From positions 1,344,001-1,408,000 of the forward strand of contig CP000068.1 of NCBI GenBank assembly GCA_000002445.1: a stretch of DNA of 64,000 bases, in the 5' to 3' direction. The stretch is from Trypanosoma brucei. Its lineage: Eukaryota. Position numbers and translations under genes: made by a program. Numbering within the stretch: position 1 is the first letter of the stretch; each line of letters starts with the position of its first letter. Under the pieces are notes generated by a model, which was given only the letters and a program-made list of their open reading frames with translations, was not told the origin of the DNA and did no database searches. This document shows, in pieces, positions 6,701 through 46,028 of the stretch.

Positions 6701-7468
6701 GCAGATGACGACAATGAATACAAACCGCCGTCCGCGCGCCTCGACCCCGAAGTGTACCGGTCTCTCTGGAAAGGTCTACGCGTACGTATCGGGATACACA
6801 CCGGACTGTGCGAAATCCGACAAGATGAAGTGACGAAGGGCTACGACTACTACGGGAAGGTGACAGACATGGCCGCGCGGACGGAGAGCGTTGCGAACGG
6901 TGGCCAGGTAGTACTGACGCAAGCAACGTACTTTGCACTGAGCACAGCAGAGCGTGAACAGTTCGATGTGGTCTCCCTTGGCCGCATACCACTTGCTGGT
7001 GCGCCCCAACCTATGGAAGTATACCAGTTGAACGCGGTGCCCGGCCGTACCTTCGCTGCTCTTCGCCTTGACCGCGAGTTTGGCGACGACTTTGAAGATA
7101 GAATGAGTACCTCCACTGGAGACTCGAGTTCTCTCCGTAGCGGGATGAATGGAACAACGCAGATGATTGCAAGTTGCCTGCAGGCTGTGCTAGGCACTTT
7201 CACTGCAGCACAGCGACAGAAACTGCTGGTGCCTTTGTGCGAACGGTGGCGTGTCACGCTTCCCAGGACCGCACAGCTAACATGGGACGAGGGCTTTTGT
7301 GAAGATGTGATTCGTCGGATTTCAGTCAAGGTCGGTCGTGTCGTTGACCTCTGTGCAAACAGCGGTGGTGAGCGTACCGTCAGTACGCTGAGAAGTGCGT
7401 CTGTGATTATAATGTCGAACCGGCTTCGGGAATTTGAGGCAGAGGCAACCCAGAGCCCTGAAGCTTAG
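3737..7468 (+). CDS. GRESAG4: Receptor-type adenylate cyclase (ESAG4/GRESAG4 family), full length
   Basis: 1243-aa ORF. A signal peptide (MSSLSLLLVFLVVVMPPVEA) sits after two upstream in-frame ATGs. A large extracellular region resembles a periplasmic-binding-protein fold, followed by a single TM (VIVGVLFILLLLVALLLVLLCL), then a class III cyclase catalytic domain (TLIFTDVESST...KTVGDSFMIA). The architecture is typical of trypanosome receptor cyclases. Confidence 0.9.
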   Translation: MISIHQSILFGRDVSRVRMENSPVPCINQFRCRLTMSSLSLLLVFLVVVMPPVEALDNITVKVYSLLYHPFVGRRLIDSMNAGFNASMAARQWTVAPGINVEVIHPASYRIPGPRFLQRAINDNKDEFFVVVGPMGDGQLAASRSFLQKENLVAFAPSTGASSVRGWSPNIYFLRVSPTVELIALMRFAVTHLRLLRIGFMYLQGLTFGDSEYEVAIKLMSHLGRELCGVFTVASSHGKGAADSDFDAVWDKFVVTRPQGVIMFAPPAKDVVRFVVKMLNDSRTQDAYFLASSVLELTIASWSSDIEAVNTALDLGQIVLSRTNPLATDTQYQAIRRFQDDARSYLSANPGVTIFSGADDFEHHYVDGKLMVYGWIVGEVLSQALRSRAWIKDRETFKKSLYSQRRYAVDELVFGDFGGECEGTAGERGAVCNCNQGGNVVYINVAGRDNVLEVIHDGQVVVDSSLCYHDEVRLHSPVNGLLVFMQDDPVAQNAAEEIYDGAIPLTGDGRLGQTDRFFLHMLTSETAEASSELESELGTRAVTAVFGVADDAMLSLQTTAFIDPISLLPGLPHRGRKVIYLSPTLEQQLFALVKYFVGSGSTVVHAVVCRGDVVSIERLLYLMLMTFGGHMGTVVGPDSSTDLEGSMPETGDVLVIGLSKDDVAVVASHLDRNPDVRVAVLFFDVALLYIEFVKAFKSSSSGGRLLFATSLPHWAEANSTSATVQKFHAAVPDSPRWTPLSLLGFATGRFIQTLLFHMDKVTPDSIINAIYTLSVVNSDDMRYGPFVEERCPSTKDAPEGGDHFCGKNYGARRLSVWSMDRALNASVAPLTSGATPSLVYIDPYSKVLSGGRLAGVIVGVLFILLLLVALLLVLLCLRRSARDNDSAPKEPADPVTLIFTDVESSTAQWAAHPELMPDAVAAHHRLIRSLITHYRCYEVKTVGDSFMIACKSAFAASSLAQGLQQRFLSADWGTSAFDESYREFEQQRADDDNEYKPPSARLDPEVYRSLWKGLRVRIGIHTGLCEIRQDEVTKGYDYYGKVTDMAARTESVANGGQVVLTQATYFALSTAEREQFDVVSLGRIPLAGAPQPMEVYQLNAVPGRTFAALRLDREFGDDFEDRMSTSTGDSSSLRSGMNGTTQMIASCLQAVLGTFTAAQRQKLLVPLCERWRVTLPRTAQLTWDEGFCEDVIRRISVKVGRVVDLCANSGGERTVSTLRSASVIIMSNRLREFEAEATQSPEA

Positions 7469-9733: not shown

Positions 9734-11293
9734 TTGCAAACAATGGAAACCGCCGTGCCTGTGCGTTATTTCCTTGGGACTCTCATTGAGGCCCCTGCGC
9801 GTGACACCTTAATTTTCGCTCCCCGCTCTCTTGTCTGCGTTGGTGCTGACGGCTGTATTACCGCTGTCCTCCAACCCAATGACATAAAAAATGAAAGCGG
9901 TGTGAGCGGCGGCGGTGGAAGTGGTTGTGGAGGGAAAAGCGACAATGAAACATACGAGCAAACGCTTAAGGAAGCCCGGAGGTCCGGAGCACTCACAGTG
10001 CTGAAAGACCACCAATATCTTCTTCCAGGTCTTATTGATCTCCATGTGCATGCACCGCAGTGGCCCCAGCTTGGAAAGGCGCTTGATCGGCCGCTCGAAA
10101 TATGGCTGCATGAGTATACTTTTCCACTCGAGGCGAAGTACGCCGACCTCGACTTTGCAGCCACATCATACAACTCCCTTGTTTCAACATTATTGGCACA
10201 CGGAACTACGACGGCTGTGTACTTCGCTACAATCCACGTGGATGCAAGTCTTTTGCTGGCACGCGTATGCCTCGAGAAAGGTCAGCGCGCCGTCGTTGGC
10301 CGCGTTGCAATGGATTTGGCATCGCAGTGCCCAGCTTATTACCGGGATGCAAGCCCCCAGGAATCTATTGAACGCTCCGAAATTTTTATTCAGGCTGTCC
10401 GCAAGCTTCCCGGCAATGACAATAGCAGTCCTCTTGTGCTCCCTGCTGTAGTCCCGAGATTTATTCCAACAAGCAGCGATGAGGCGCTTCAGGGTCTTGG
10501 TCGTCTGGTCGCCAAGTACGGCTGCCACGTGCAGTCACACGTGTCGGAGAGCGACTGGGAGCATCACCACGTGTTGGAGCGCTGTGGTAAACCAGACGCC
10601 TTCGCTCTGGATGATGCCGGCCTGCTGACGCGGCGCACGGTCCTCGCTCACGGAAATTTCCTCTCAGATGCGGATATGAAACTTTTGTGTTCTCGTGGTT
10701 CCGCGGTGGCGCACTGTCCGCTTTCGAACTTTTATTTTTCAGGTGCCGTTTTCCCGCTGCGTCGTGCTTTGGACTTCGGGCTGCGCGTCGGTCTCGGGAC
10801 GGATATCTCCGGGGGACCTTCACCTGCAATTTGGGATGCCGCCCGTGATGCCTTAATGGCCGCTCGTGCACTTGAGAGTGGCGTCGACCCAACAACTTCA
10901 AAGGAGGAACGTGGTGGCCGGCGTCATGCCAATCCGGAGCAAAGCAAAGCGGAAGACTCAAACGGAAAAAAGGGGGAAAACCCGCGTGTTGGCGGTTCAG
11001 CTGCAGAGTCACGAGATTCAACTTCATGCCGCATCAATTCTGTGGAGGCCTTTTGGTTGGCGACAACACGTGGAGGTGAGGCTTTGGATCTTAAAGTTGG
11101 TCGGCTCGCCGCTGGATTTCACTTTGATGCAGTTGTTGTGGATGTTTCCGTTCCCACTGGCGGTGTGCACATCTTTCAAGGTCTTGACGGACCCCGTGAC
11201 ATCTTTGACAAAATTGTCTACGGTGCGTCCGCAGCAAACGTTGTTCAGACATATGTGGCCGGCCGCTTGGTCCACGGGAGGGTAGAACTTTAG
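9734..11293 (+). CDS. Guanine deaminase-like metal-dependent amidohydrolase
   Basis: PGLIDLHVHAPQ (the HxH metal-binding motif), EYTFPLE, HGTTTAVYFATIHVDASLLLA, VPRFIPTSS, HVQSHVSESDWE, AHCPLSNFYFSG and GLGTDISGG are colinear with guanine deaminase. There is a Gly-rich insert after the first beta-strand and a charged insert near the C-terminus. Confidence 0.82.
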   Translation: MQTMETAVPVRYFLGTLIEAPARDTLIFAPRSLVCVGADGCITAVLQPNDIKNESGVSGGGGSGCGGKSDNETYEQTLKEARRSGALTVLKDHQYLLPGLIDLHVHAPQWPQLGKALDRPLEIWLHEYTFPLEAKYADLDFAATSYNSLVSTLLAHGTTTAVYFATIHVDASLLLARVCLEKGQRAVVGRVAMDLASQCPAYYRDASPQESIERSEIFIQAVRKLPGNDNSSPLVLPAVVPRFIPTSSDEALQGLGRLVAKYGCHVQSHVSESDWEHHHVLERCGKPDAFALDDAGLLTRRTVLAHGNFLSDADMKLLCSRGSAVAHCPLSNFYFSGAVFPLRRALDFGLRVGLGTDISGGPSPAIWDAARDALMAARALESGVDPTTSKEERGGRRHANPEQSKAEDSNGKKGENPRVGGSAAESRDSTSCRINSVEAFWLATTRGGEALDLKVGRLAAGFHFDAVVVDVSVPTGGVHIFQGLDGPRDIFDKIVYGASAANVVQTYVAGRLVHGRVEL

Positions 11294-11994: not shown

Positions 11995-14900
11995 TTTTCC
12001 TCCAGTTATTGCTATAAATGTTGCAATGCCTGTTGGTAGGCGTCAGCGGTATTCCGTTGTTTGAAGATTCTAATGGACTGTTGTGTTCATTTCCCTGCGT
12101 GGAATCGTGTGTTGAGTGCTTCTAACGTTAATACCTCTTTGTATTGTTGCCGCTGCATGCTTTTGAGACTCGCGAGTGATTTGTAACCCGGCATTGTAAT
12201 ACGGTATTTATTGGATGAAATTCTTCTGCAGATGCACTGTTCCATCTTTTTAACCCTTTTCTTCGTGTGTAGCATAAGACTGAAAGCCGTGTTGTTGAGA
12301 CTGTAGGTAGTCGTGTAACTTACTCACCACTGGATCACTTGTCACAGGTAGGCAAATAGTAAGGACAGTGTGGTTGAAGGAAGTTTTCCGTTTTTTTTTT
12401 TTTAAGGTGCGAATAATCGAGTGAAAGCTACTGTGTTCTCGTACATACTTGCACTTGATTGGTGTGCAGGTGCGGTTGTATCTGTTTGGCAGTTGCAGTA
12501 TTTGATCATTTGTTACTGTTAAGTGTTCATAACACTGAGGAAAAGACGGGCGTATCCATATTTGAGTGGCAATGTGTTTTATATTTGGTGTTGAGATGAG
12601 TAACCTAGCAAAGAGGCCAATGAGCCTGAGGAAGCTACCACAGCTTCTTTTGCTCATCATGATTGGTATTGCATTTGTTGCGGTTGAGTGCATTGGAGCT
12701 CCTGTTAAACTTCCCCGACGCGTGGATACTGTTGCCGGTCAATTTGGCGTGGAAGGCGAAACTAATGGATATCCAAATACTACGAGACTTACAGAACCCT
12801 ACGCATTGTGTCGAGGGAGGACAAACGATGAAATTTTAGTGGGGAGTTCCAACAGCTTCCGCAACTACTCTCGCAAAACAAAAGAAACTGGTACATATTT
12901 GAGATACAATGTAGGTGATAGCGTGATTTCAGGGTCCTCTACTATAAACAAACCTCGTAGTTGTGTCCGTCGCGGCTCTGGTAATCACACAATCATTTAC
13001 TTTGTTGACGACCAGAAAGATATTAAATATATTGTAGGGGATGATGTTTCGTCTTTCAGTGTGCCCACAAGCGGTTCCTTGAATGCTGTAGCTGTACATG
13101 AAGGCACTTTATACGTAACAGACCAGAATAACAAATCGGTGTGGAAGTGTGGTTTAGGCGGCGCCGGCAAGCCTCAAAGTTGTGAAGAGAAAAAATTTAC
13201 GAGCGTGACACTCGACGCAAAACCGGAAGGAATTGCCGTGACTTCTAAAGGAATTTTTGTTACCGCACGCGATTCATCTAACAAGGGAGCTTTGTTGTGG
13301 CTGGATATGAGCGGTGGTAACAGAAAGGGAAATGTAAGTGGTGGTTTTGTTGATGTATTCAGCACTGAGTCAGGTGTGTTATATGCAGCCACGGAGAAGG
13401 AATTGTACACCGTCACTGCCACCGACACTTCACTCAGTGTAACATCATTTGCAGGGAAGAATACGAGCCAGTGTTACTTCCCTACCAATGGAGAAGATAT
13501 TGTATTATGTGACAACTCACGACTGCTCGTCATTGAAGAATATGAGATGTATGTGACTTCGAAGGCCAAGCACACTATGCGTGCCTTAACTCTCCCTCCA
13601 GTCAACTTAACCGCCATCTTCCGTGGGCGACCAGCACCTGTAGGTTACCCCAACACAACAATTATGGAGCAGTTTGTGGCAAGTCTTACGGAGGATGTAA
13701 ATAAAGCACTCGGTACCAATGATAGCTATGTGGACCCCGATTCTGTGAGGGTGGATCCCGATACATGGGAAACGAATTTCACTGTTTTTGTTCAGCAAAC
13801 GCGTTTTGACAATACGACGGAGGAGAAATTACGGAGTCTGACATACACACAAACGGATAAGACTGTTGACGAGTATTACGGTCTTACTGATGAGTATGTG
13901 TACATTGATACCGTCCTTGTGCCATTCTGTGACGATGCAAGCCTTGTCACTATCCAGCGTGCGTTGGCGCGTGAAGCTGGACGTGCACTGAATTTCTCTT
14001 TGGTATACGCTGACAAGCCCATAACCTTTGGTAGTGACGTTGCGGAGAATGTCACTGCAGTAAAGCTTTTGATGCCTCATTCATTCAAGAACGCAACGAC
14101 ACCTAAGCAGCTATCGGCTGCGAACCTCACTGACTTTGCGCACAACTTGGTCAAGGACTTGCGTGCTTCAGACACTCGTGTCGATATCACATTCCCCGAT
14201 CCCCCGTTTAATTTTTCAGCTGTTGTCCCTGAACGTGAGCAGGAAGTACGTTGGTTTGTCCATGGGAAAGTAATGAAGCAGCTTGAGATTTGTGAGAGAC
14301 TTGGTAGCCAGGGCGATGCGGCCGTTATTGCAGCTGCAGCTGATGCGACTGCTCGAGGTAAGGCCAATGTCACATTGAATACCAGCGGAGTCAAGGCAAA
14401 TGATACAGGGGTTGGTCCCAACACCACAAATACCGCTGGTGGGGCCAATACTACTGCTAATGTTGCCGCTAATGGCACTGCCAATGTTATTGTGAATCCC
14501 TCCACCAATGCTACTCCAACTGGAACCACCAATGCTAGTGTCACTAATACTACCGAGAGAGCTGTTCCTGTTGTTGCCCCTACTCAACCTTCTAATGGAT
14601 ATGCGGAGTGTCGATCCGCTATAACCAACCGCACGGAAACACAGAACATGGAACCACCTTACGACAGGAAACACCGATATGAGGTATTCCTACCTAAAAA
14701 GTATGACTTCAATGTGTCATGGTGCGTGGACATCATTGACTGGCGTGACTTGGACGAGATGTTGAATAACCGCACAGATGAGGTGGTGGAAAAGTCCCTT
14801 TCATGGTGCGGCCACGGTTGCATTATTGCGTTTGCGGTGGTAGGTTCCCTGATTGCTGCGTGTCTAGTGGTGCTGGCTGTGGTGTTGACATCGAAGAGGA

Positions 14901-15925
14901 GGCGTCTTGCTGCTGTGGTTGCTCCACCGCGCCCAAAGTTTGTATCAACAGTGGAAGATGATGATGAAGATCGTGTATCAAACATCGGTGTGCCACTGAC
15001 CGATGGGAAGGGAACCACCGCACCGTAAGTCACGTACGTTGTAGCTGTATGTGTAACATCACATTCCTTGTGTTTGTGTGGTGTGTTTGCATGCATAGAA
15101 TATAATCGGACTAGAAAACACTTTATTTGAGCGTACCCCTGTCCTTGAGTGACACTCTCAGGGGGATGACGCTGCTTAACATTGTGGAGAGGGAGAGACA
15201 CAACAGAGAGTAGAGTAATATGTTTGTGTGCAAGAGATAATAGAAAGGAGGAGGGGTGGTGTGACTCTGTGTCTTGCTTATGTTATTACCTTCCCTCACT
15301 GTTCCCCCCCACACACACATACACACGTACCGGAATCCGTAATATACACGGTATTTGTAGGGGCTGTCCTTTTATTTTCTCTTCCATTGTTTGCTTTGCA
15401 TGTCCCTCACAGTTGTGGTAGAATGAGTGCTCGCACCTGGTGTGTGAGTGTGGGAAGGTTTCATGCACGAGTGTGTATCACTAAAAATGCGGTCAGTAGA
15501 TAACAAAGTGTGTGTTAATCACCTTGTGTGAGTATTTAAATCATATTTGACTCCACCGGGTCTGTGCTTGCTTCTTTCTCTTTGTTTTGATTAACTGGGA
15601 CGCGTTTGACCTTTTTGCAGTGTGCGTTTATATCTGCTGTGCCCGGCATATGGCACACCTTTCTTTCACTACGCTATGTGTTCTGAAGCCCCATTACTCT
15701 CTTTCCGCGAGTACCCCAATTGCATATACTCCTCTTCACTGCTTCCCTCTTTTTTTGTTTAATTTATCTTTTCTTAATTACGTAACTTCTGGTAGTGTCA
15801 GTAATATTCAGACAGTTGAGAGAGAGAGGGGGGGGGGTGGTGAGTTTACCAACCAAGTAAGCCAGCGGTCAGCCCCTTCTGAGGCCCGTGTGGAGTTGCC
15901 TGATGTTTCCATGCACGCATAAGAG
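11995..15925 (+). repeat. Tandem duplication unit A (~3.9 kb; paralogous to 19060..22995): one ~820-aa glycoprotein gene with 5' and 3' flanks
   Basis: Flanks are near-identical, e.g. 'ttcctccagttattgctataaatgttgcaatgcctgttgg' at the left end and '...tccatgcacgcataagaggcagg' at the right end. An internal ~0.8 kb patch has diverged. Confidence 0.85.
12566..15028 (+). CDS. Heavily N-glycosylated type-I membrane glycoprotein, copy A; beta-propeller-like N-terminal domain; family unassigned
   Basis: 820-aa ORF. The signal peptide is probably used from the internal Met (MSLRKLPQLLLLIMIGIAFVAVECIGA). YVTD / FVTARD / LYAATEKELYTVTAT blade-like repeats are present. There are more than 30 NxS/T sequons, including an NTT/NAT-rich stalk. 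The C-terminal TM is IIAFAVVGSLIAACLVVLAVVL, followed by a KRRR stop-transfer and a 45-aa acidic tail. Confidence 0.8.
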   Translation: MAMCFIFGVEMSNLAKRPMSLRKLPQLLLLIMIGIAFVAVECIGAPVKLPRRVDTVAGQFGVEGETNGYPNTTRLTEPYALCRGRTNDEILVGSSNSFRNYSRKTKETGTYLRYNVGDSVISGSSTINKPRSCVRRGSGNHTIIYFVDDQKDIKYIVGDDVSSFSVPTSGSLNAVAVHEGTLYVTDQNNKSVWKCGLGGAGKPQSCEEKKFTSVTLDAKPEGIAVTSKGIFVTARDSSNKGALLWLDMSGGNRKGNVSGGFVDVFSTESGVLYAATEKELYTVTATDTSLSVTSFAGKNTSQCYFPTNGEDIVLCDNSRLLVIEEYEMYVTSKAKHTMRALTLPPVNLTAIFRGRPAPVGYPNTTIMEQFVASLTEDVNKALGTNDSYVDPDSVRVDPDTWETNFTVFVQQTRFDNTTEEKLRSLTYTQTDKTVDEYYGLTDEYVYIDTVLVPFCDDASLVTIQRALAREAGRALNFSLVYADKPITFGSDVAENVTAVKLLMPHSFKNATTPKQLSAANLTDFAHNLVKDLRASDTRVDITFPDPPFNFSAVVPEREQEVRWFVHGKVMKQLEICERLGSQGDAAVIAAAADATARGKANVTLNTSGVKANDTGVGPNTTNTAGGANTTANVAANGTANVIVNPSTNATPTGTTNASVTNTTERAVPVVAPTQPSNGYAECRSAITNRTETQNMEPPYDRKHRYEVFLPKKYDFNVSWCVDIIDWRDLDEMLNNRTDEVVEKSLSWCGHGCIIAFAVVGSLIAACLVVLAVVLTSKRRRLAAVVAPPRPKFVSTVEDDDEDRVSNIGVPLTDGKGTTAP

Positions 15926-16153
15926 GCAGGTAATTTTCCTCGTGACCTTTTTTTTTATGCTGTCTATCTGTCAACTTGTTTCTAATGCTGCTGGAAATAA
16001 TATTTCCTATTTAAAATAGGTGAAGGTTTACGTGCCCGCATAGGTGCACCTGTATGTGTTTTATGAGGTTATATTGTAGTTATGTCAAATATTGTGATCG
16101 TAACTTATATTATTTTCGTCCATTCTAAATGGTTGTGATGGATTTTTCTTTTC

Positions 16154-16495
16154 GTGCTTCTTCATTTGTTAATTAAAAGTGAAAAGATGACGGACACGTT
16201 TGAAGGTATTTTAAAAGAAATCCACAGTCTTGAGGAGATGAACGACATGTACTCCTACCAAATTGCCTCTCTGATGGTGGAGGTTAAGGAGAATGGAGGG
16301 GACACTAAAAAGGAAGAGGAAGTGCTTGAATTAAAGCGTCGGCTGAGCGAGAACCTGAAATGTGTCAGTGAACTTGATGTCCTCTTTTATAAATACCCCT
16401 GGAAGAAATATGCGCACCTTCGGAGGAAGTCCCATTCGGCATCGTCTGGGGGGGGGGCAGTCATAAATTTTCCTGACCAGGGGAAAACCCCCTAA
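16154..16495 (+). CDS. Hypothetical small charged/coiled-coil-like protein (113 aa)
   Basis: An ORF in the unique spacer between the two glycoprotein copies. It is E/K-rich (KKEEEVLELKRRLSENLK) and ends beside a G10 tract. There is no homology support. Confidence 0.25.
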   Translation: MLLHLLIKSEKMTDTFEGILKEIHSLEEMNDMYSYQIASLMVEVKENGGDTKKEEEVLELKRRLSENLKCVSELDVLFYKYPWKKYAHLRRKSHSASSGGGAVINFPDQGKTP

Positions 16496-17548
16496 TGAAT
16501 TGGTAACGGAAACTCGTAGAATGTGCTATTGGGGTGACTGAACTAACTCCATCATGTACTGGGTATTTTCCCAATTTTCTGAGCATGCGTATGTGAGTGT
16601 ATAATGCGGCGGGTGATACACGCCGTCGGAATAGCGCAAGTGGCTGCTTAATAATTAAGGCAGCCCAAGGCCTGCGTGGTTTTCCGCATTTTATATTTAT
16701 TTTTGTGATGTGCATCTTATGGCTATGCAAAATAATGATGAAACCTTATTGATTGGCTATTTAACTCCTCTCTTTTACTTCCTTTCCCGCCCGATAGAAT
16801 GCGTTACTTCCATCGCTTTAACCACGTAATAACTTTTGTTTTCCCTGATTTCCTTTATAGTTACTTTGGTTGTTTCCCGGTCTCGGTGCTGATCAACTTA
16901 TTTAAATTATCCTTGTTATTTTCATTTTGAATATTGGTGTTTCTATTATATCTTGGTTGACTACGAACAGATCCACCCTTTTTTCTTTTTTGCTTTAATG
17001 TAACTGAACAGTTATCTCATGAGAAATTTGTATCAGCTACGTTAGCGCCAGTAATTTTGAGCAAGCGTCCCATAATAACAGTAGTGAGGCCTTTTAAACC
17101 GGCATCACCAAGAAATGGGTTATGGAGGGTAATTTAAAGTTGTTGGCCCTCCGCGCTGATCTGGAAGCGGGACGATACGCATCGGGTGAGGCACGAAGCT
17201 GTTAATTAATGAAAGAGGAACTGGAAATATCTCAGAAGTTATGCCAAGCGTTACGGCTCGGGGGTGTCTTCGGTTGCCTGGGGGCAGGGAAAAGCACTAC
17301 TTAGTCATGGAGTTGCCGCTACAAACTGCGGTGCATACGTATGTTGTTTTGAGTGTGGCATGCTTCTTACAAAGCACTGGAGTGCGGAGTATTATTAGTT
17401 CGGGAGTTGTGTGGACAGGTCGTGCGGTGAATAGGGGCATGAAGGGATAGTGCAATAGTGTGGGTTTGTGTGTCATCGTGCAGCCGAAGTTAATATGCCA
17501 CTGCTCTCGCATCTTCGCACATTTACGTGTTTCGTGACATGATTGATA

Positions 17549-17570
17549 TGTGTGTGTGTGTGTGTGTGTG
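17549..17570. repeat. (TG)n microsatellite
   Basis: atgtgtgtgtgtgtgtgtgtgtgcc read directly in the sequence. Confidence 0.9.
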
Positions 17571-19059
17571 CCGAGGGAGGTGGTCATTTGGCATACCACA
17601 TTTTCGGGAGTAATGTACCCTCGGCGATGTAGTGTAAATCTTTGACAACTTAGTTAACACTGGCAGTGAAGTGGAATCAGCATCACTTGCAGTTGCCCAG
17701 AGGTGTGTTGAGCCATCACGGGAACGTGTATATACCGATTTACAGAGATTGATCATTTTACATGGAAGAGCACTGTAATGTACAGTTTCCAAAATACTGC
17801 TATGTGAATGCAAGCCGCGGCCGCGGGTGGCGTTCGTATCTCCTGAAGAGTGACTGAGTGTTTAAAGATCATAGTTCCTGATGCATGATCACCTCAATAT
17901 GAAACTATTAGGCACGCTCCGTAGTTTTCCCTACGGACCTCCCCGTGCGTTGATGCTCATTAGCCGGAGCGGCACCCTCTGTGAGCTGCATTTAGTGTGC
18001 CATGGTGATAACTCACACTGTCAATGCACAATACGTGCGGATATGTGGGGACGGCCGCCTACTTTGAGTGGCAGCGCAGTTCTCTCTTTTCGTACCCACA
18101 GTGTGACTGAGACAGCGGCAATGAACCATTTTGGCACGTTGCATAAGACACCCGTTAGTTTGCCGTGCTGATACAGAAATGGGGTAAGGGTTTATGGCTT
18201 CCACATTTCAGGTATTACCGATGGTCCCAAGGAACACTTATGCAGTTTGCACCTGGGAACGGTAGTCACATACTGGCAACCTTTTTAACAGTCATATCGC
18301 GGAACCGTGCTTTAATGTCGTGCATCTTTAATTCATTAAATATTTAGCAGGAAGATGGCATAAATAGGTAGAAGGAAGACTATCGGCATTGTCACTTGGG
18401 TACGCTGGAATGTCGATTTTGTCTCTTACGGAACGATGGCTAGGGTCAAATCTGTATGACGGCCCTTTCCCCTTTGTGCCTTAGGACTCGGTTGGTGGTT
18501 ATGTGTGTTTGCATGCCGGTTCCCACTGCTGGTGCCGGAGAGCGTTATCGCAGTAAGTCGAATTATGCGTACCAAAGACTATCGCGTTTTGGTTTGCTTC
18601 ACCATATCCGGAAGCAGGAAGTTTGTGTTGACTGCATCCATGGGGAGGGGGACGGTAATTATGTAGTTGCGGTTGACATACGGCTGAGGGGCAGTATTTG
18701 GAAATATGGATGTATCGACGCGGTCATTGCCTACGCTTTGGTGGTTTATTTACAGTCATGTGCCACTGACCGCGGTAAGTTTGTTGGGCTTTCATTATAG
18801 CCGCATTGTGTCCTTCCCGTCACAGCATAACATCAGATTTTCCAAAAGGGGTTCCCTGCTGTGTGTTAAGGCCGCGCATGTGAGAAACATGATACGAGCT
18901 GGCATCAATCTATTTATTATGAACATTTCGCATTTGAACGCGGTGGACACAATCGCCGCCCCCGTTACTGTGTTACGCAGCATTAGCATCACTTCTTAAT
19001 TTCGGGCCTCCCATGGCGACTTTTTTACATTTACGAGCAGCACCGGAAGCTATGGAAAC

Positions 19060-22000
19060 ATTTTCCTCCAGTTATTGCTATAAATGTTGCAATGCCTGTT
19101 GGTAGGCGTCAGCGGTATTCCGTTGTTTGAAGATTCTAATGGACTGTTGTGTTCATTTCCCTAGCGTGGAATCGTGTGTTGAGTGCTTCTAACGTTAATA
19201 CCTCTTTGTATTGTTGCCGCTGCATGCTTTTGAGACTCGCGAGTGATTTGTAACCCGGTATTGTAATACGGTATTTACTGGATGAAATTCTTCTGCAGAT
19301 GCACTGTTCCATCTTTTTAACCCTTTTCTTCGTGTGTAGCATAAGACTCAAAGCCGTGTTGTTGAGACTGTAGGTAGTCGTGTAACTTACTCACCACTGG
19401 ATCACTTGTCACAGGTAGGCAAATAGTAAGGACAGTGTGGTTGAAGGAAGTTTTCCGTTTTTTTTTTTTTAAGGTGCGAATAATCGAGTGAAAGCTACTG
19501 TGTTCTCGTACATACTTGCACTTGATTGGTGTGCAGGTGCGGTTGTATCTGTTTGGCAGTTGCAGTATTTGATCATTTGTTACTGTTAAGTGTTCATAAC
19601 ACTGAGGAAAAGACGGGCGTATCCATATTTGACTGGCAATGTGTTTTATATTTGGTGTTGAGATGAGTAACCTAGCAAAGAGGCCAATGAGCCTGAGGAA
19701 GCTACCACAGCTTCTTTTGCTCATCATGATTGGTATTGCATTTGTTGCGGTTGAGTGCATCGGAGCTCCTGTTAAACTTCCCCGACGCGTGGATACTGTT
19801 GCCGGTCAATTTGGCTTTGATGGAACCACTGATGGGAGTTCGAATGTTTCAATGCTTTCGTCACCCTACGCATTGTGTCGAGGGAGGACAAACGATGAAA
19901 TTTTAGTGGGGAGTTCCAACAGCTTCCGCAACTACTCTCGCAAAACAAAAGAAACTGGTACGTTCCTCAGGGGTGGCCCAACTGGAGGACTCGTCTCCGC
20001 AGACGCTAAAATTAGCAAGCCACGTAGTTGTGTCCGTCGCGGCTCTGGTAATCACACAATCATTTACTTTGTTGACGATCAAAATGGTCTGAAATATATA
20101 AATGACAACGAAATTCAGCACGTTACTGTAGGGAATGGTCTTTCGTTAACTTCCGTCGCTATTTATGAGAAAGATTTATACGTAACAGACCAGAATAACA
20201 AATCGGTGTGGAGGTGTAATGTCGGCGGTGCCGGCAAGCCTCAAAATTGTGAAGAGAAAAAATTCACGGGCCTGACGTTTACTGCAAAACCGGAAGGAAT
20301 TGCCGTGACTTCTAAAGGAATTTTTGTTGCCGCACGCGATTCATCTAACAAGGGAGCTTTGTTGTGGCTGGATATGAATGGTGGTGGCTCAAAGGGAAAT
20401 GTAAGTGGTGGTTTTGTTGATGTATTCAGCACTGAGTCAGGTATGTTATATGCAGCCACGGAGAAGGAATTGTACACCGTCACTGCCACCGGCTCTGCAT
20501 TCAGCGTAACATCATTTGCAGGGAAGAATACGAGCTCATGTTACTCTCATGCCAATGGAGAAGATATTGTATTATGTGACAACTCGCGACTGCTCGTTAT
20601 TGAAGAATATGAGATGTACGTGACTTCGAAGGAGAAGCATACTATGCGTGCCTTAACTCTCCCTCCAGTCAACTTAACCGCCATCTTCCGTGGGCGACCA
20701 GCACCTGTAGGTTACCCCAACACAACAATTATGGAGCAGTTTGTGGCAAGTCTTACGGAGGATGTAAATAAAGCACTCGGTACCAATGATAGCTATGTGG
20801 ACCCCGATTCTGTGAGGGTGGATCCCGATACATGGGAAACGAATTTCACTGTTTTTGTTCAGCAAACGCGTTTTGACAATACGACGGAGGAGAAATTACG
20901 GAGTCTGACATACACACAAACGGATAAGACTGTTGACGAGTATTACGGTCTTACTGATGAGTATGTGTACATTGATACCGTCCTTGTGCCATTCTGTGAC
21001 GATGCAAGCCTTGTCACCATCCAGCGTGCGTTGGCGCGTGAAGCTGGACGTGCACTGAATTTCTCTTTGATATACGCTGACAAGCCCATAACCTTTGGTA
21101 GTGACGTTGCGGAGAATGTCACTGCAGTAAAGCTTTTGATGCCTCATTCATTCAAGAACGCAACGACACCTAAGCAGCTATCGGCTGCGAACCTCACTGA
21201 CTTTGCGCACAACTTGGTCAAGGACTTGCGTGCTTCAGACACTCGTGTCGATATCACATTCCCCGATCCCCCGTTTAATTTTTCAGCTGTTGTCCCTGAA
21301 CGTGAGCAGGAAGTACGTTGGTTTGTCCATGGGAAAGTAATGAAGCAGCTTGAGATTTGTGAGAGACTTGGTAGCCAGGGCGATGCGGCCGTTATTGCAG
21401 CTGCAGCTGCTGCGACTGCTCGAGGTAAGGCCAATGTCACATTGAATACCAGCGGAGTCAAGGCAAATGATACAGGGGTTGGTCCCAACACCACAAATAC
21501 CGCTGGTGGGGCCAATACTACTGCTAATGTTGTCGCTAATGGCACTGCCAATGTTATTGTGAATCCCTCCACCAATGCTACTCCAACTGGAACCACCAAT
21601 GCTAGTGTCACTAATACTACCGAGAGAGCTGTTCCTGTTGTTGCCCCTACTCAGCCTTCTAATGGATATGCGGAGTGTCGATCCGCTATAACCAACCGCA
21701 CGGAAACACAGAACATGGAACCACCTTACGACAGGAAACACCGATATGAGGTATTCCTACCTAAAAAGTATGACTTCAATGTGTCATGGTGCGTGGACAT
21801 CATTGACTGGCGTGACTTGGACGAGATGTTGAATAACCGCACAGATGAGGTGGTGGAAAAGTCCCTTTCATGGTGCGGCCACGGTTGCATTATTGCGTTT
21901 GCGGTGGTAGGTTCCCTGATTGCTGCGTGTCTAGTGGTGCTGGCTGTGGTGTTGACATCGAAGAGGAGGCGTCTTGCTGCTGTGGTTGCTCCACCGCGCC

Positions 22001-22995
22001 CAAAGTTTGTATCAACAGTGGAAGATGATGAAGAAGATCGTGTATCAAACATCGGTGTGCCACTGACCGATGGGAAGGGAACCACCGCACCGTAAGTCAC
22101 GTGCGTTGTAGCTGTATGTGTAACATCACATTCCTTGTGTTTGTGTGGTGTGTTTGCATGCATAGAATATAATCGGACTAGAAAACACTTTATTTGAGCG
22201 TACCCCTGTCCTTGAGTGACACTCTCAGGGGATGACGCTGCTTAACATTGTGGAGAGGAAGAGACACAACAGAGAGTAGAGTAATATGTTTGTGTGCAAG
22301 AGATAATAGAAAGGAGGGGGGGGGGTGGTGTGACTCTGTGTCTTGCTTATGTTATTACCTTCCCTCACTGTTTCCCCCCCCCCCACATACACACGTACCG
22401 GAATCCGTAATATACACGGTATTTGTAGGGGCTGTCCTTTTATTTTCTCTTCCATTGTTTGCTTTGCATGTCCCTCACAGTTGTGGTAGAATGAGTGCTC
22501 GCACCTGGTGTGTGAGTGTGGGAAGGTTTCATGCACGAGTGTGTATCACTAAAAATGCGGTCAGTAGATAACAAAGTGTGTGTTAATCACCTTGTGTGAG
22601 TATTTAAATCATATTTGACTCCACCGGGTCTGTGCTTGCTTCTTTCTCTTTGTTTTGATTAACTGGGACGCGTTTGACCCTTTTGCGGTGTGCGTTTATA
22701 TCTGCTGTGCCCGGCATATGGCACACCTTTCTTTCACTACGCTATGTGTTCTGAAGCCCCATTACTCTCTTTCCGCGAGTACCCCAATTGCATATACTCC
22801 TCTTCACTGCTTCCCTCTTTTTTTTGTTTAATTTATCTTTTCTTAATTACGTAACTTCTGGTAGTGTCAGTAATATTCAGACAGTTGAGAGAGGGGGGGG
22901 GGGAGGAGTTTACCAACCAAGTAAGCCAGCGGTCAGCCCCTTCTGAGACCCGTGTGGAGTTTCCTGATGTTTCCATGCACGCATAAGAGGCAGGC
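19060..22995 (+). repeat. Tandem duplication unit B (paralog of 11995..15925)
   Basis: See unit A. The offset between units is ~7067 bp. Homopolymer G/C tracts differ in length between the two units. Confidence 0.85.
19639..22095 (+). CDS. Heavily N-glycosylated type-I membrane glycoprotein, copy B
   Basis: 818-aa ORF. It is more than 98% identical to copy A over the C-terminal ~490 aa. Between roughly aa 58 and 335 it differs from copy A in patches. Confidence 0.8.
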   Translation: MCFIFGVEMSNLAKRPMSLRKLPQLLLLIMIGIAFVAVECIGAPVKLPRRVDTVAGQFGFDGTTDGSSNVSMLSSPYALCRGRTNDEILVGSSNSFRNYSRKTKETGTFLRGGPTGGLVSADAKISKPRSCVRRGSGNHTIIYFVDDQNGLKYINDNEIQHVTVGNGLSLTSVAIYEKDLYVTDQNNKSVWRCNVGGAGKPQNCEEKKFTGLTFTAKPEGIAVTSKGIFVAARDSSNKGALLWLDMNGGGSKGNVSGGFVDVFSTESGMLYAATEKELYTVTATGSAFSVTSFAGKNTSSCYSHANGEDIVLCDNSRLLVIEEYEMYVTSKEKHTMRALTLPPVNLTAIFRGRPAPVGYPNTTIMEQFVASLTEDVNKALGTNDSYVDPDSVRVDPDTWETNFTVFVQQTRFDNTTEEKLRSLTYTQTDKTVDEYYGLTDEYVYIDTVLVPFCDDASLVTIQRALAREAGRALNFSLIYADKPITFGSDVAENVTAVKLLMPHSFKNATTPKQLSAANLTDFAHNLVKDLRASDTRVDITFPDPPFNFSAVVPEREQEVRWFVHGKVMKQLEICERLGSQGDAAVIAAAAAATARGKANVTLNTSGVKANDTGVGPNTTNTAGGANTTANVVANGTANVIVNPSTNATPTGTTNASVTNTTERAVPVVAPTQPSNGYAECRSAITNRTETQNMEPPYDRKHRYEVFLPKKYDFNVSWCVDIIDWRDLDEMLNNRTDEVVEKSLSWCGHGCIIAFAVVGSLIAACLVVLAVVLTSKRRRLAAVVAPPRPKFVSTVEDDEEDRVSNIGVPLTDGKGTTAP

Positions 22996-24159
22996 ATTTT
23001 TTATTCGTAGTTTGTTTTATAATTTCAGTTGTGCCTTGGAGTTTCGTATGAGAATTTGTGCCCAGAGGGGCTGCTGATGAATGTTTTTTTTTTTAATTTG
23101 TTTTTGTCCTTTGCTCTGCTTAAAGGAACGGGGGTATTGATGACATTTTTGCTTTTTTTTCCAAAAAAAAGGCGTAGCGGGTGTAGCGAGGACGATTCGT
23201 TGTGAAATATATTGAGAGGTTGAACTGTTGTTGTTGGTATATTTTTTTTTGTGTGGTGCGTATGCAAATGCATGACTAACATTCTCATTGACGGCGGAGT
23301 CATAACGTTATCATTGACGGAAAAAGACAGTTTAGATTTTATTATATGATATTTGTGGCCGGGAATGCTTCCAAGCCACAACAGTACAGTTCTATCTTGA
23401 CCCCCACGGTGCAATAGTGGTGTACGGCGTTATTTAAATTTGGAATTTCAACCTTATCAAATTGTGTTTTTCTTGCAACTTAATAGTTTTGGTTGCGGAA
23501 ATACGAGCAAAATACTTGTCGGGAATAAATTTGATATCCACGAAAGAATTGTCATTAAAATTGAGCGGTTCCCTTTATGGAAGCGAGTGCAATGACCGGT
23601 GTCGGAGTGGCCATAGCAGTTGAGACTTTAATGTGAATGATTATGAGTCAACAATCTGTTCCACTAGACAGTTAATGGGCAGGCAGTAAAAGCGGACACA
23701 AAAATACAGTCAATTTGTAAAAACTCCACAGGGAGGACGGCAACGGCAGAGGGTTTGAGAGGAGCCAGAGAAATGATAACTTTTGCTGCCAATGAGATAA
23801 ACTCACCATAACCTCGTGTCAATGGTGCGTTAACAAAGGGATTCGCCCCAATATCTAATCAGTGAGTTAACTTAGGTATAATATGTATGTGCAAACGCAG
23901 CCTTTGATTTTTTTTTTATCGATGTCGTCGTGTTTCTCTTCCCCTCGAAAAAAAAAGAAGGAAAGCCGACGATACCCTTCGGGAGTTAAGAGGATGGTTT
24001 GGTGTCCCTTCTGTGCGTCCAACGAGGTGCGTGCACTTTCCACCGCTAAGTTCTGCGCCTCGCTCACAACCATAAAACAAGAGTCTTTTTTTTCTTTTTG
24101 AATAATGCGCATGCAAACGATCCCGCTTTTCCCCCCTTCCCGTTGGCATTTTCCCCCAT

Positions 24160-24160
<1 letters not shown>

Positions 24161-24195
<35 letters not shown>

Positions 24196-24196
24196 G
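24161..24196. repeat. (CA)n(TA)n microsatellite
   Basis: cacacatacatatatatatatatatatatatatg. Confidence 0.9.
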
Positions 24197-24246
24197 CATA
24201 GAGCAGCCGAAAAACAGCATTTAAGCCAAGGTGCCAACTTGAGCGA

Positions 24247-25434
24247 ATGCGGCATCTTGGCTTTGCTGGCGATAAGAAACGGTCGATGAGCATAGTGGGC
24301 TTGTTTCTTTTTTTATTGGCTTGCGTGTCAGTAGTTGCAACACATGCAAATGGAAGTGTCCTCAGGAGCACGGGATCTGAGGGAAAGGTGTGGTTAGATG
24401 CACCAACTAGTCGGCGAGTCCCATTTAGGAATCCGAGAGTCATTTTTGTTGTTGTTCAGACCCGACCCTCTCCAGGTTGGTGCAGAATGTTAATGACTGC
24501 TGTTGTTACAAATGTGTCGGTAATTTCTATTGGTATGGGTGGGAATTACAGCCACACCATCCGGGCAAACTGGTTATTGAATTTCTTGGATGATGAGGTC
24601 CTCCATGATGATGATGTGTTAGTTATGTTTGATGGTGCGGATACACTTTTCACTGATGGAATCCATCGGAAACGGAAGCTTGACCACTTTATAAAAATGT
24701 CTCCCCCACTGCCTACATTCTTTAACCAAACGGCTATATACAGAGGTGATGCTTGGCCGCCCATGCTTCACACAGCAGAACCGGATTGTTATGCTCCCCA
24801 GCTGAACATCACATACAACCCGAAAAATGAGTCGCATTGGGATCGCTGTGCGAGATTTTATGCCATGGGTCTGTCGGAAGCCAAATCAATTGGTGTTGAG
24901 CGGCTGCTGGGGTTGCCACCTCCCGTGCGTGGACACCTCAACAGTGGAGGAATTGTGGGCCGGGTATGGGCATATAAAGAGGCATTTAGCGTTTTTTTGC
25001 AACTCAGGGAAGCTTCCACTGAATGGTGGTGTGATCAGTCTATTTGGGCTGCCTTATTTATTTGGAGCGTTGGTAGTGCAACGGGTGTGGATTCCAAATA
25101 CATAATACGGCGTGGAATCATTAGTCTTGACTATGACAAGAGATACTTTTACTACCCAACAGATGAATACGATACAAGTTCGGTACTTTTACATTTTACA
25201 GGGGCCCCCGACCGATGGACGTATTACTTTCCAGAATACTTTGTCCGCCTTCCGTGGTATAGGAACCTTATGGGAAACAGTACCTACAGACATAATGTCG
25301 TGGCGGCGTTACGAAATACTTCCATCATAACCTACAACTACACTCGGGAGAGGATTGTAAGGAAATATGAAGATATTTGTGATGTGGAACAGATGACTGA
25401 CCCCGAATTTTTGGTGTACCCACTGAATAAGTAA
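24247..25434 (+). CDS. Type-II membrane GT31-like glycosyltransferase / ESAG3-like protein (395 aa)
   Basis: An N-terminal signal anchor (IVGLFLFLLACVSVVA) and a DDDV motif in 'EVLHDDDVLVMFDGAD', which resembles the DxD motif of beta-1,3-glycosyltransferases. Two degenerate fragments of the same family lie within VSG cassettes at 44180-44770 and 62390-62840. Confidence 0.65.
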   Translation: MRHLGFAGDKKRSMSIVGLFLFLLACVSVVATHANGSVLRSTGSEGKVWLDAPTSRRVPFRNPRVIFVVVQTRPSPGWCRMLMTAVVTNVSVISIGMGGNYSHTIRANWLLNFLDDEVLHDDDVLVMFDGADTLFTDGIHRKRKLDHFIKMSPPLPTFFNQTAIYRGDAWPPMLHTAEPDCYAPQLNITYNPKNESHWDRCARFYAMGLSEAKSIGVERLLGLPPPVRGHLNSGGIVGRVWAYKEAFSVFLQLREASTEWWCDQSIWAALFIWSVGSATGVDSKYIIRRGIISLDYDKRYFYYPTDEYDTSSVLLHFTGAPDRWTYYFPEYFVRLPWYRNLMGNSTYRHNVVAALRNTSIITYNYTRERIVRKYEDICDVEQMTDPEFLVYPLNK

Positions 25435-45905: not shown

Positions 45906-46028
45906 ACAAAATAAATAGAAAATAAACCAAATTATAATATCACTCATTTTTTGATACCTCATTTCCTCACCACCTTGCACCAATAGGCGACTTTCACAGC
46001 ATTTTATTTTACAAGTTTTCATCAAAAA

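What the first reader, a model, noticed from the sequence alone, without database searches (positions are those of the whole stretch)
12566..22095. Tandem pair of ~820-aa surface glycoprotein paralogs with a patchy, mosaic hypervariable N-terminal domain
The two copies at 12566..15028 and 19639..22095 are essentially identical in the 5' flank, signal peptide, C-terminal ~490 aa, TM and tail. Across ~aa 58-335 (12740-13570 vs 19810-20640) they differ in discrete patches, for example GVEGETNGYPNTTRLTEP vs GFDGTTDGSSNVSMLSSP and YLRYNVGDSVISGSSTIN vs FLRGGPTGGLVSADAKIS, with identical stretches between them. This region is the putative beta-propeller-like ectodomain (YVTD, FVTARD, LYAATEKELYTVTAT). 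Sharp identity boundaries inside otherwise near-identical genes suggest either segmental gene conversion from other family members or diversifying selection on a ligand- or host-facing domain. I cannot assign the family. It is not GP63 (no HExxH motif), not trans-sialidase (no Asp boxes) and not VSG-like. It may be an under-described invariant or variant surface family next to a VSG array.
Basis: seen in the sequence. Interest (0 to 1): 0.75.

Follow-up and report, generated by a model that had tools for sequence, protein, structure and literature searches.

The report
Known trypanosome flagellum-adhesion gene pair (FLA3/FLA2BP)
The two genes are the already characterised Trypanosoma brucei flagellum-attachment glycoproteins FLA3/FLA2BP-1 and -2, kept almost identical by gene conversion except for a few short, very old islands of difference in surface loops of their beta-propeller domain.

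Summary
A 3.94-kb unit is duplicated (11995-15937 and 19061-23001). 150 of the 157 coding differences fall in 825 nt, in discrete patches without indels. The family is not unknown. The window is T. brucei TREU927 chromosome 5, and the ORFs are exactly Tb927.5.4570/4580. These are FLA3 (Woods 2013), also called ESP8 and now FLA2BP-1/-2. They are bloodstream-stage, heavily N-glycosylated proteins needed for flagellum attachment, and are paralogs of FLA1BP. Woods et al. already reported about 92% identity with variation in small N-terminal stretches.

- The variable part is a six-bladed NHL-like propeller, and the differences are enriched in its loops.
- In the three large patches the copies are only 28% identical in protein and saturated at synonymous sites. 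That is as far apart as FLA2BP is from FLA1BP.
- Sequence between the patches is identical even at silent sites.
- T. b. gambiense and T. equiperdum carry the same two patch types, sometimes swapped between copies. New substitutions are shared by both copies within a lineage.

This indicates concerted evolution with retained ancient islands. Selection for keeping both types is inferred, not shown. The partner FLA2 shows no matching dimorphism. The genes are known; the evolutionary detail is of modest interest.

The parts
11995..15937 (+). Duplicated unit, copy 1 (5' flank, FLA2BP-1 CDS and 3' flank)
   Evidence: Self-BLASTN, 95.4% over 3958 columns. Boundaries refined.
19061..23001 (+). Duplicated unit, copy 2 (5' flank, FLA2BP-2 CDS and 3' flank)
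12572..15028 (+). CDS of Tb927.5.4570 (FLA3 / ESP8 / FLA2BP-1), 818 aa, 'a-type' patches
   Evidence: Exact match to XP_845127.1 of T. b. brucei TREU927. Gene IDs and names from Woods 2013 and de Liz 2026.
19639..22095 (+). CDS of Tb927.5.4580 (FLA3 / FLA2BP-2), 818 aa, 'b-type' patches
   Evidence: Exact match to XP_845128.1.
12719..13621 (+). Copy A region coding the six-bladed NHL-like beta-propeller (aa 50-350)
   Evidence: AF2 model built with a 19-sequence alignment: 25 strands, pLDDT about 90. Foldseek to Brat NHL 1q7f/4zlr gives TMt 0.67-0.69, and 3hrp also matches.
19786..20688 (+). Copy B propeller-coding region (aa 50-350)
   Evidence: Collinear with copy A, no indels.
12749..12795 (+). 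Patch P1 (aa 60-75; copy B 19816-19862): 23 of 47 nt differ. Lies in the loop preceding blade 1.
12895..12955 (+). Patch P2 (aa 108-128; copy B 19962-20022): 36 of 61 nt differ and all 21 codons differ. Lies in the loop between blades 1 and 2.
13012..13107 (+). Patch P3 (aa 147-179; copy B 20079-20174): 49 of 96 nt differ. Covers the outer strands of blade 2, the loop to blade 3 and the first strand of blade 3.
13146..13573 (+). Minor patches P4-P8 and isolated sites (copy B 20213-20640): 43 differences in short clusters of 13-71 nt.
   Evidence: These patches are re-assorted between copies in T. b. gambiense.
14312..14599 (+). Asn/Thr-rich, sequon-dense, disordered insert (aa 581-676), specific to FLA3/FLA2BP. 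Same region in copy B is 21379-21666.
   Evidence: pLDDT below 50. Absent from the other family members in alignment A2. Woods 2013 notes the insertion.
14822..15025 (+). C-terminal transmembrane helix, conserved SKRRRLAAVVAPP motif and short cytoplasmic tail (aa 751-818)
   Evidence: Helix 747-779. The motif is invariant across the family.
15938..19060 (.). Unique spacer between the two units, with no ORF of 120 aa or more

Best explanation
The two genes are FLA3 = FLA2BP-1 and FLA2BP-2 (Tb927.5.4570/4580) of Trypanosoma brucei.

Function (from the literature): they are bloodstream-stage, heavily N-glycosylated membrane proteins. The extracellular part, an NHL-type beta-propeller followed by an alpha/beta stalk, bridges the gap between the flagellar and cell-body membranes at the flagellum attachment zone together with FLA2. 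This zips the flagellum to the cell.

Origin of the sequence pattern:
- Shown: frequent gene conversion between the tandem copies keeps the whole 3.9-kb unit, including flanks and silent sites, about 99-99.6% identical.
- Shown: about seven short islands, coding mainly for propeller loops and outer strands of blades 1-3, keep two ancient sequence types. These are as diverged as FLA2BP is from FLA1BP.
- Shown: the islands behave as modules that are occasionally swapped between the copies.
- Inferred: the three large islands persist because selection favours keeping two different propeller surfaces. Conversions that erase the difference are removed. The extreme local divergence, which hinders heteroduplex formation, helps preserve them.
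For: Identity:
- Exact matches to XP_845127.1 and XP_845128.1 on the 1.6-Mb TREU927 chromosome.
- ESP8 = FLA3.
- Woods 2013: Tb927.5.4570/80, about 92% identical, N-glycosylated to 160 kDa, bloodstream-specific, located at the attachment zone, RNAi detaches the flagellum.
- de Liz 2026: named FLA2BP-1/-2; FLA2 is needed for FLA2BP placement and attachment.
- FLA1BP is the best paralog: E = 9e-201, 46% identity over the full length.

Fold:
- AF2 pLDDT about 90 for aa 50-580, with 25 strands.
- Foldseek matches NHL propellers.

Concerted evolution:
- pS is 0.006 over codons 346-590 and 0.041 between patches. The flanks are 97-99% identical.
- In T. b. gambiense, 6 of 7 private substitutions are shared by both copies.

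Ancient islands:
- In the three big patches A and B are 27.7% identical in protein, against 22-29% for any cross-species or paralog pair.
- pS is 0.77, against 0.75-0.87 for either copy versus FLA1BP.
- Every codon of P2 differs.

Modular exchange:
- T. equiperdum BoTat copy 2 carries the a-type P1 (23 of 23 sites).
- In T. b. gambiense P7 is swapped (7 of 7 sites in each copy) and P6 is homogenised.
- The TREU927 BAC alleles differ at small patches.

Location of the differences:
- Loops hold 44 of 133 variable residues and strands 25 of 168 (odds ratio 2.8, p = 3e-4).
- The same columns are the hypervariable ones family-wide.

Controls:
- The chromosome 8 FLA2/FLA1BP tandem duplication is uniformly 99.3% identical over 6.5 kb.
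- The T. vivax and T. congolense duplicates differ only by 6 scattered residues each.
Against: - Selection is not demonstrated. dN/dS is about 0.5 overall and cannot be measured in the saturated patches.
- The three taxa compared are very closely related, so 'stable across taxa' is a weak test.
- The T. equiperdum copy 2 with an a-type P1 shows that losing one island is tolerated at least in that lineage.
- The partner FLA2 has identical NHL domains in both of its copies. There is therefore no sign of two co-adapted adhesion pairs, and no functional difference between FLA2BP-1 and -2 is known.
- Which membrane carries the protein is disputed in the literature. Woods 2013 places it on the cell-body side. 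Later work places it on the flagellar side by analogy with FLA1BP.
- No atomic coordinates were available, so assignment of patches to faces of the propeller rests on strand order only.
Confidence: 0.6

Rival explanations
1. Neutral relics. The islands are simply the fastest-evolving, least constrained loop segments. Once they had diverged beyond what homologous recombination and mismatch repair tolerate, conversion tracts stopped at their edges. They persist without any selection for two types.
For: - The patches coincide with the family-wide hypervariable, indel-prone loop columns.
- 49-59% nucleotide mismatch inside the big patches would block heteroduplex formation.
- The less dense small patches P4-P8 are the ones seen re-assorted or homogenised.
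- There is no dN/dS signal.
- The partner FLA2 is monomorphic.
- Suppression of recombination between diverged sequences by mismatch repair in T. brucei is established knowledge, not tested here.
Against: - Whole-patch replacement does occur (P1 in T. equiperdum BoTat copy 2, P7 swap in T. b. gambiense), so the barrier is leaky. Over the time needed to saturate silent sites, a leaky barrier should have erased the dimorphism.
- Homogenising the 38-99-nt stretches between patches without ever crossing a patch needs very short tracts.
- The other tandem duplicates of the same family have no such islands.
Confidence: 0.28
2. Import model. A recent or fully homogenised duplicate received several short conversion tracts from a diverged FLABP-like donor gene or pseudogene elsewhere in the genome, or from an introgressed haplotype.
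For: - Boundaries are sharp, with complete identity outside the patches, including silent sites.
- The patches are as diverged from each other as from FLA1BP.
- The locus lies beside a VSG array, where segmental conversion from pseudogenes is common (the last point is background knowledge).
Against: - No donor was found. FLA1BP is not closer to either type.
- No other FLA3-like fragment lies in the window.
- No further T. brucei relatives appear in two protein searches and a full HMMER scan.
- The model needs about seven in-frame, indel-free imports, some only 13-16 nt long.
- The T. brucei genome itself could not be searched at the DNA level with these tools.
Confidence: 0.08
3. Ongoing antigenic hypervariation. 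The propeller is a rapidly diversifying, host-facing variant antigen with many types, analogous to a VSG or the ESAG6/7 hypervariable sites.
For: - The protein is bloodstream-specific, surface-labelled and partly in the flagellar pocket.
- Variation is concentrated in the loops.
Against: - Only two types were seen in eight sequenced copies from three taxa and two TREU927 versions.
- The a-type P1-P3 differ at 0-2 of 108 typed sites between taxa.
- All 28 N-glycosylation sequons are conserved in position.
- Synonymous sites are saturated, so the divergence is old rather than fast.
Confidence: 0.03
4. Assembly artefact: mis-joined or collapsed repeats create the apparent differences.
For: Tandem repeats are error-prone in assembly. 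The DAL972 copy 1 has a 100-N gap, and the T. equiperdum OVI contig ends after copy A.
Against: The same two types were recovered in independent projects: the TREU927 chromosome and BAC, DAL972, and BoTat PacBio. A Lister 427 clone is 98.4% identical to Tb927.5.4580.
Confidence: 0.01

Closest known systems
FLA3 (Woods et al. 2013) = ESP8 (Gadelha et al. 2015) = FLA2BP-1/-2 (de Liz et al. 2026), Tb927.5.4570/4580
   Same: These are the same genes. The protein sequences match exactly. The published features agree with what is seen here: 818 aa, two hydrophobic spans, many sequons, about 92% identity with variation in small N-terminal stretches.
   Different: Nothing differs in identity. The searched literature does not describe the following: the a/b island structure, its saturation at silent sites, the patch swaps between subspecies, or the mapping onto propeller loops.
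FLA1BP (Tb927.8.4050/4100), the procyclic-stage flagellar-membrane partner of FLA1
   Same: Homologous over the full length (46% identity, E = 9e-201). It has the same architecture: propeller, stalk, transmembrane helix and SKRRRLA tail. It also occurs as a tandem duplicate.
   Different: Its two copies are identical in TREU927, where both accessions carry one sequence. The 6.5-kb duplicated unit on chromosome 8 is uniformly 99.3% identical in T. equiperdum. It lacks the Asn/Thr-rich insert and is expressed in the procyclic stage.
FLA1 / FLA2 / GP72 NHL-domain adhesion glycoproteins (cell-body side)
   Same: They have NHL-type ectodomains and a role in the flagellum attachment zone. FLA2 is the proposed ligand of FLA2BP.
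   Different: This is a different protein family (588 aa, with a Pro-rich linker). The two FLA2 copies are identical in the NHL part and differ only in Pro-rich repeat length.
Concerted evolution with selectively retained islands in tandem paralogs (general phenomenon; for example the ESAG6/7 transferrin-receptor hypervariable sites in T. brucei). This comparison rests on background knowledge.
   Same: Near-identical paralogs with short blocks of divergence in ligand- or host-facing loops.
   Different: Here there are only two paralog-specific types in a core-chromosome locus, not a multi-copy expression-site family. No ligand-range or antigenic role has been shown.

Membership tests
FLABP family (FLA1BP / FLA2BP = FLA3) | Sequence identity to the named genes Tb927.5.4570/4580 | tested here: met
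   Both ORFs match XP_845127.1 and XP_845128.1 of TREU927 exactly. The papers tie these neighbouring tandem genes to FLA3/FLA2BP. The T. equiperdum ortholog is annotated ESP8, and ESP8 = FLA3.
FLABP family (FLA1BP / FLA2BP = FLA3) | Full-length homology to FLA1BP and to kinetoplastid FLABP orthologs | tested here: met
   Profile search: FLA1BP E = 9e-201, T. vivax 5e-152, T. grayi 4e-139, T. theileri 2e-120. 17 proteins score below 1e-30. Alignment A2 covers the whole length.
FLABP family (FLA1BP / FLA2BP = FLA3) | Architecture: N-terminal hydrophobic signal or anchor, large glycosylated ectodomain with an NHL propeller, one C-terminal transmembrane helix, short basic tail | tested here: met
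   Helices at 22-36 and 747-779, propeller at 50-350. 28 sequons, all in the ectodomain. SKRRRLA is invariant in the family.
FLABP family (FLA1BP / FLA2BP = FLA3) | Attachment-zone localisation, bloodstream-stage expression, flagellum detachment on knock-down, dependence on FLA2 | not testable with these tools
   Taken from the literature only: Woods 2013, Gadelha 2015, de Liz 2026.
NHL repeat (Pfam PF01436) | Sequence match above the Pfam gathering score | tested here: not met
   Copy A scores 17.4 bits against a cut-off of 20, and copy B gives no hit. Only 1 of 19 family members matches at E <= 0.01.
NHL repeat (Pfam PF01436) | Six-bladed beta-propeller fold resembling solved NHL domains | tested here: met
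   Foldseek: Brat NHL 1q7f/4zlr/5ex7 TMt 0.67-0.69, probability 1.00; the B. thetaiotaomicron protein of unknown function 3hrp also matches. The model has 25 strands in aa 50-350.
VSG / ESAG / ISG / GP63 / trans-sialidase surface families | Any Pfam domain of these families | tested here: not met
   No such Pfam hit for either copy, while the neighbouring ORFs do hit VSG_B, ESAG1 and Trypan_glycop.
Concerted evolution by inter-paralog gene conversion | Lineage-specific substitutions shared by both paralogs, and mosaic re-assortment of paralog-specific blocks | tested here: met
   In T. b. gambiense 6 of 7 private sites are shared by the two copies. P1 is converted in T. equiperdum BoTat copy 2, and P7 is swapped in T. 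b. gambiense.
Diversifying (positive) selection | dN/dS above 1 in the variable codons | tested here: inconclusive
   Codons 57-335 give dN 0.169, dS 0.341. In the big patches pS is 0.77 (saturated) and pN 0.435, so the ratio cannot be estimated.

The most novel reading that the evidence does not exclude
The a/b islands are an ancient dimorphism, held in paralog-specific form by balancing selection on the exposed surface of the flagellar adhesion propeller. Selection would be either antibody pressure at the flagellar pocket and attachment zone, or two distinct binding specificities other than FLA2. Short-tract conversion shuffles the islands as modules. This would make FLA2BP a second example, besides the transferrin receptor, of a non-VSG bloodstream surface protein whose host-facing loops are kept diverse in T. 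brucei.
Probability: 0.3. Interest if true: 0.5.

Novelty: already known. Interest (0 to 1): 0.27.

Why it matters
The genes and their function are established, so the finding opens no new family. The modest added value is evolutionary. One essential bloodstream-stage adhesion protein exists as two propeller-surface variants, which have stayed distinct despite demonstrably active homogenisation. The monomorphic partner FLA2 argues that the variable loops are not the FLA2-binding surface. That gives experimenters a map of residues that are probably dispensable for adhesion and possibly host-exposed. This is relevant to antibody or nanobody targeting and to the design of paralog-specific tags, RNAi and RNA-seq read assignment.

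Tried and rejected
- Word-indexed protein searches gave almost nothing: 2 hits with the full protein and 1 with the ectodomain profile. The full HMMER scan was needed to recover the family.
- The PDB sequence search gave no meaningful relative.
- Single-sequence AlphaFold failed (pLDDT 37.5). It was repeated with the 19-sequence alignment.
- Pfam NHL is below threshold, so membership rests on the fold.
- I tested whether the partner FLA2 has a matching dimorphism, which would indicate co-evolving pairs. In T. equiperdum chromosome 8 the two FLA2 copies are identical in the NHL part, so this idea was rejected for now.
- I tested whether FLA1BP is the donor of either patch type. It is not.
- I looked for other FLA3-like fragments or repeats of the spacer in the window. 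There are none.
- An exact look-up of the TREU927 FLA1BP gene failed, so the T. equiperdum and T. b. gambiense loci were used instead.
- NG86 dS could not be computed for the big patches because of saturation, so proportions pS and pN were used.
- No model coordinates were available, so the patches could not be mapped in 3D. Only strand and loop assignment was possible.


Full report
**Observation**

The + strand carries two 818-aa ORFs, at 12572-15028 and 19639-22095. The GTG at 12566 listed for the first is only the mechanical ORF start. Both begin MCFIFGVEMSNL at an ATG.

Self-BLASTN shows a single duplicated unit, 11995-15937 vs 19061-23001, 95.4% identical. The unit therefore includes about 0.58 kb upstream and 0.9 kb downstream of each CDS. 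The two units are separated by a unique 3.1-kb spacer.

A 60-column identity scan and segment counts give:
- 5' flank: 99.1%
- first 177 nt of the CDS: 99.4%
- 12749-13573: 81.8% (150 mismatches, no gaps)
- remaining 1455 nt of the CDS: 99.6%
- 3' flank: 97.3%

The concentration of differences is far beyond chance (P = 2e-61). So is the patchiness inside the zone: perfect runs of 99, 56 and 38 nt sit between patches, against a simulated maximum of 72 nt in 20,000 trials.

**Identity**

Neighbouring ORFs hit receptor-type adenylate cyclase (GRESAG4-like), an amidohydrolase, VSG_B, ESAG1 and VSG A/C-terminal domains. The window is therefore African-trypanosome DNA at the edge of a VSG array.

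An exact look-up places both ORFs on the 1,608,198-bp chromosome of T. b. brucei TREU927 as XP_845127.1 and XP_845128.1. Variants Tb05.5K5.210/.220 come from a BAC, and orthologs occur in T. b. gambiense and T. equiperdum. One ortholog is annotated 'Enriched in surface-labeled proteome protein 8'.

The literature ties these together:
- Gadelha et al. 2015 state that ESP8 localises to the flagellar pocket and flagellum attachment zone, and that it is the FLA3 of Woods et al..
- Woods et al. 2013 describe the tandem Tb927.5.4570/80. [quoted passage not shown] The protein runs at 160 kDa because of N-glycosylation, is bloodstream-stage specific and is located at the attachment zone. RNAi rapidly detaches the new flagellum and blocks cytokinesis.
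- The 2016 review lists both genes as attachment-zone proteins with an NHL domain.
- de Liz et al. 2026 rename them FLA2BP-1 and -2. They show that FLA2BP needs FLA2 to spread along the attachment zone and to maintain attachment.

The paralog variation itself is already in print.

**Family and fold**

A full HMMER scan with an ectodomain profile recovers FLA1BP (Tb927.8.4050/4100; E = 9e-201) and orthologs in T. vivax, T. grayi, T. theileri and more distant kinetoplastids. Weak hits beyond these cover propeller repeats only. The 19-sequence alignment is collinear from the signal/anchor to the invariant SKRRRLA tail.

With that alignment AlphaFold gives pLDDT of about 90 for aa 50-580. The model has these parts:
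- 25 strands in aa 50-350, consistent with six four-stranded blades plus a closing strand
- an alpha/beta stalk at aa 350-580
- a disordered Asn/Thr-rich insert at aa 581-676
- a transmembrane helix

Foldseek's best compact matches are NHL propellers (Brat NHL TMt 0.67-0.69) and the Bacteroides thetaiotaomicron protein of unknown function 3hrp. By sequence the Pfam NHL model is below threshold (17.4 vs 20 bits; 1 of 19 members).

**Anatomy of the differences**

The 157 nucleotide differences form eight clusters plus singletons. The three large patches are:

| Patch | aa | nt differing | Note |
|---|---|---|---|
| P1 | 60-75 | 23 of 47 | |
| P2 | 108-128 | 36 of 61 | every one of the 21 codons differs, including the 7 that keep the same amino acid |
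| P3 | 147-179 | 49 of 96 | |

P4-P8 are smaller or sparser.

In the big patches pS is 0.77 and pN 0.435. This is indistinguishable from FLA2BP versus FLA1BP (pS 0.75-0.87, pN 0.49-0.52). Between the patches pS is 0.041, and in codons 346-590 it is 0.006.

Protein identity in the big patches is 27.7% between A and B. It is 22-29% for every other pair among A, B, T. congolense, FLA1BP and T. vivax. The inter-patch propeller is 98.5% identical between A and B, against 47-51% to the others.

The islands are thus as old, or as foreign, as the split between the two FLABP paralogs. Everything around them is freshly homogenised. Overall dN/dS for codons 57-335 is about 0.5, which gives no positive-selection signal. 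The patches themselves are too saturated to test.

All 28 N-glycosylation sequons are at identical positions in both copies. This includes N69 inside P1 (NTT vs NVS).

Variable residues are enriched in loops (44 of 133, against 25 of 168 in strands; odds ratio 2.8, p = 3e-4). They are concentrated in blades 1-3. They occupy the inter-blade loops 58-77, 112-129 and 164-169, plus the two outer strands of blade 2. In canonical propeller topology the inter-blade loops lie on one ('top') face. That is an inference from strand order, not from coordinates.

**Comparative evidence for the mechanism**

I fetched the locus from T. b. gambiense DAL972 (L001), T. equiperdum OVI (L002) and T. equiperdum BoTat (L003). 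Every copy was typed at the 157 A/B-diagnostic sites.

- Copy 1 is a-type and copy 2 is b-type for P1-P3 everywhere, with at most 0-2 changes in 108 sites.
- There is one exception: BoTat copy 2 carries a-type P1 at 23 of 23 sites.
- In T. b. gambiense P7 is swapped (copy 1 b-type 7/7, copy 2 a-type 7/7). P6 is a-type in both copies, and P4, P5 and P8 are mixed.
- The TREU927 BAC versions differ from the chromosome versions at small patches.
- Substitutions private to a taxon are shared by its two copies, 6 of 7 in T. b. gambiense.

These are the signatures of ongoing inter-paralog gene conversion with short tracts whose ends fall in the identical stretches. They also exclude an assembly artefact.

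Other tandem duplicates of the same family serve as controls and lack islands:
- The FLA2-FLA1BP unit on chromosome 8 of T. equiperdum is uniformly 99.3% identical over 6.5 kb. Its two FLA2 copies differ only in Pro-rich repeat length, apart from one single-base indel and one point difference.
- The T. vivax duplicates differ at six scattered residues, and so do the T. congolense duplicates.

**Interpretation**

Shown:
- The genes are FLA3/FLA2BP-1 and -2.
- Concerted evolution homogenises the unit.
- Seven or so islands of saturated divergence persist in propeller-surface codons.
- The islands are exchanged as modules.

Inferred (about 0.5-0.6): the large islands persist because selection favours keeping two propeller surfaces. 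Conversion is active, whole-patch replacement is possible, and yet the divergence has reached saturation.

The main rival (about 0.3) is neutral persistence. Under it, roughly 50% mismatch blocks heteroduplex formation in intrinsically unconstrained loops.

No donor was found.

Ongoing hypervariation in the manner of a variant antigen is contradicted. Only two stable types exist, and the sequons are conserved.

Both copies of the partner FLA2 carry the same NHL domain. Two co-adapted adhesion pairs are therefore unlikely, and the variable loops are probably not the FLA2-binding surface. That points to host exposure or simply low constraint.

**Verdict**

The genes, their function and the existence of patchy N-terminal variation are already known. 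The new elements are the evolutionary dissection and the structural mapping. These are of specialist interest and suggest straightforward population-genomic and reverse-genetic tests.

Noticed in passing
window 15938-19060: The 3.1-kb spacer between the two FLA2BP units is unique in the window and has no ORF of 120 aa or more. Small ORFs lie at 16154-16495 (113 aa, charged, no Pfam hit) and 18456-18800 (114 aa). A 114-aa gene is called at what appears to be the corresponding place in the T. b. gambiense annotation (L001 8820-9164).
   Followed up: partly
window 24247-25434: A 395-aa ORF lies just downstream of copy B, with an N-terminal hydrophobic stretch and no Pfam match. A 395-aa gene is also called at the corresponding place in T. 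b. gambiense (L001 14612-15799) and T. equiperdum (L003, from 20650).
   Followed up: no
window 16-933 and 3737-7468: Two receptor-type adenylate cyclase genes (GRESAG4-like) lie upstream. The first is cut by the window edge. They are followed by an amidohydrolase (guanine-deaminase-like) ORF at 9734-11293.
   Followed up: partly
window 30081-31214, 36095-37069, 39173-57686: The core-to-subtelomere transition lies here. On the + strand there is a partial VSG_B ORF and an ESAG1 ORF. From about 39 kb, minus-strand VSG genes or pseudogenes follow. At 42095-42985 and 42998-43636, two adjacent ORFs carry a VSG C-terminal domain and a partial VSG_B domain, which suggests one disrupted gene. GC content alternates between 0.27 and 0.49 from 44 kb onward, and a strand switch occurs near 37-39 kb.
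   Followed up: partly
window 26001-34000: AT skew turns positive (+0.11 to +0.22) only in this stretch, while the rest of the window is negative. Cause not examined.
   Followed up: no
L001 3440-3541 (T. b. gambiense DAL972): Copy 1 of FLA2BP is interrupted by a 100-N gap. About 100 nt of the gene (query nt 613-717) are present on both sides of the gap. This is why it is annotated as a 573-aa fragment, and it is probably an assembly join in a repeat.
   Followed up: partly
L002 (T. equiperdum OVI contig CZPT02001461.1): The contig ends about 2.5 kb after the a-type copy, so the second copy is missing from this contig in the assembly.
   Followed up: no
L004 6179-12693 vs 15757-22253 (T. equiperdum BoTat chr 8): The FLA2-FLA1BP tandem unit is duplicated at 99.3% identity. 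The two FLA2 copies differ by in-frame length changes in the Pro/Thr/Ser-rich linker (nt 1012-1139) and by one single-base indel that is probably a long-read error.
   Followed up: yes
window 24166-24199: A 31-nt inverted repeat (96.8% complementary) lies just upstream of the 395-aa ORF.
   Followed up: no
P0002 (T. congolense) vs FLA1BP and FLA2BP: In the stalk region (aa 346-590) the T. congolense homolog is closer to T. brucei FLA1BP (55.7%) than to FLA2BP (49.6-50.0%). In the propeller framework it is slightly closer to FLA2BP (46.9% vs 41.8%). Its orthology is therefore ambiguous.
   Followed up: no
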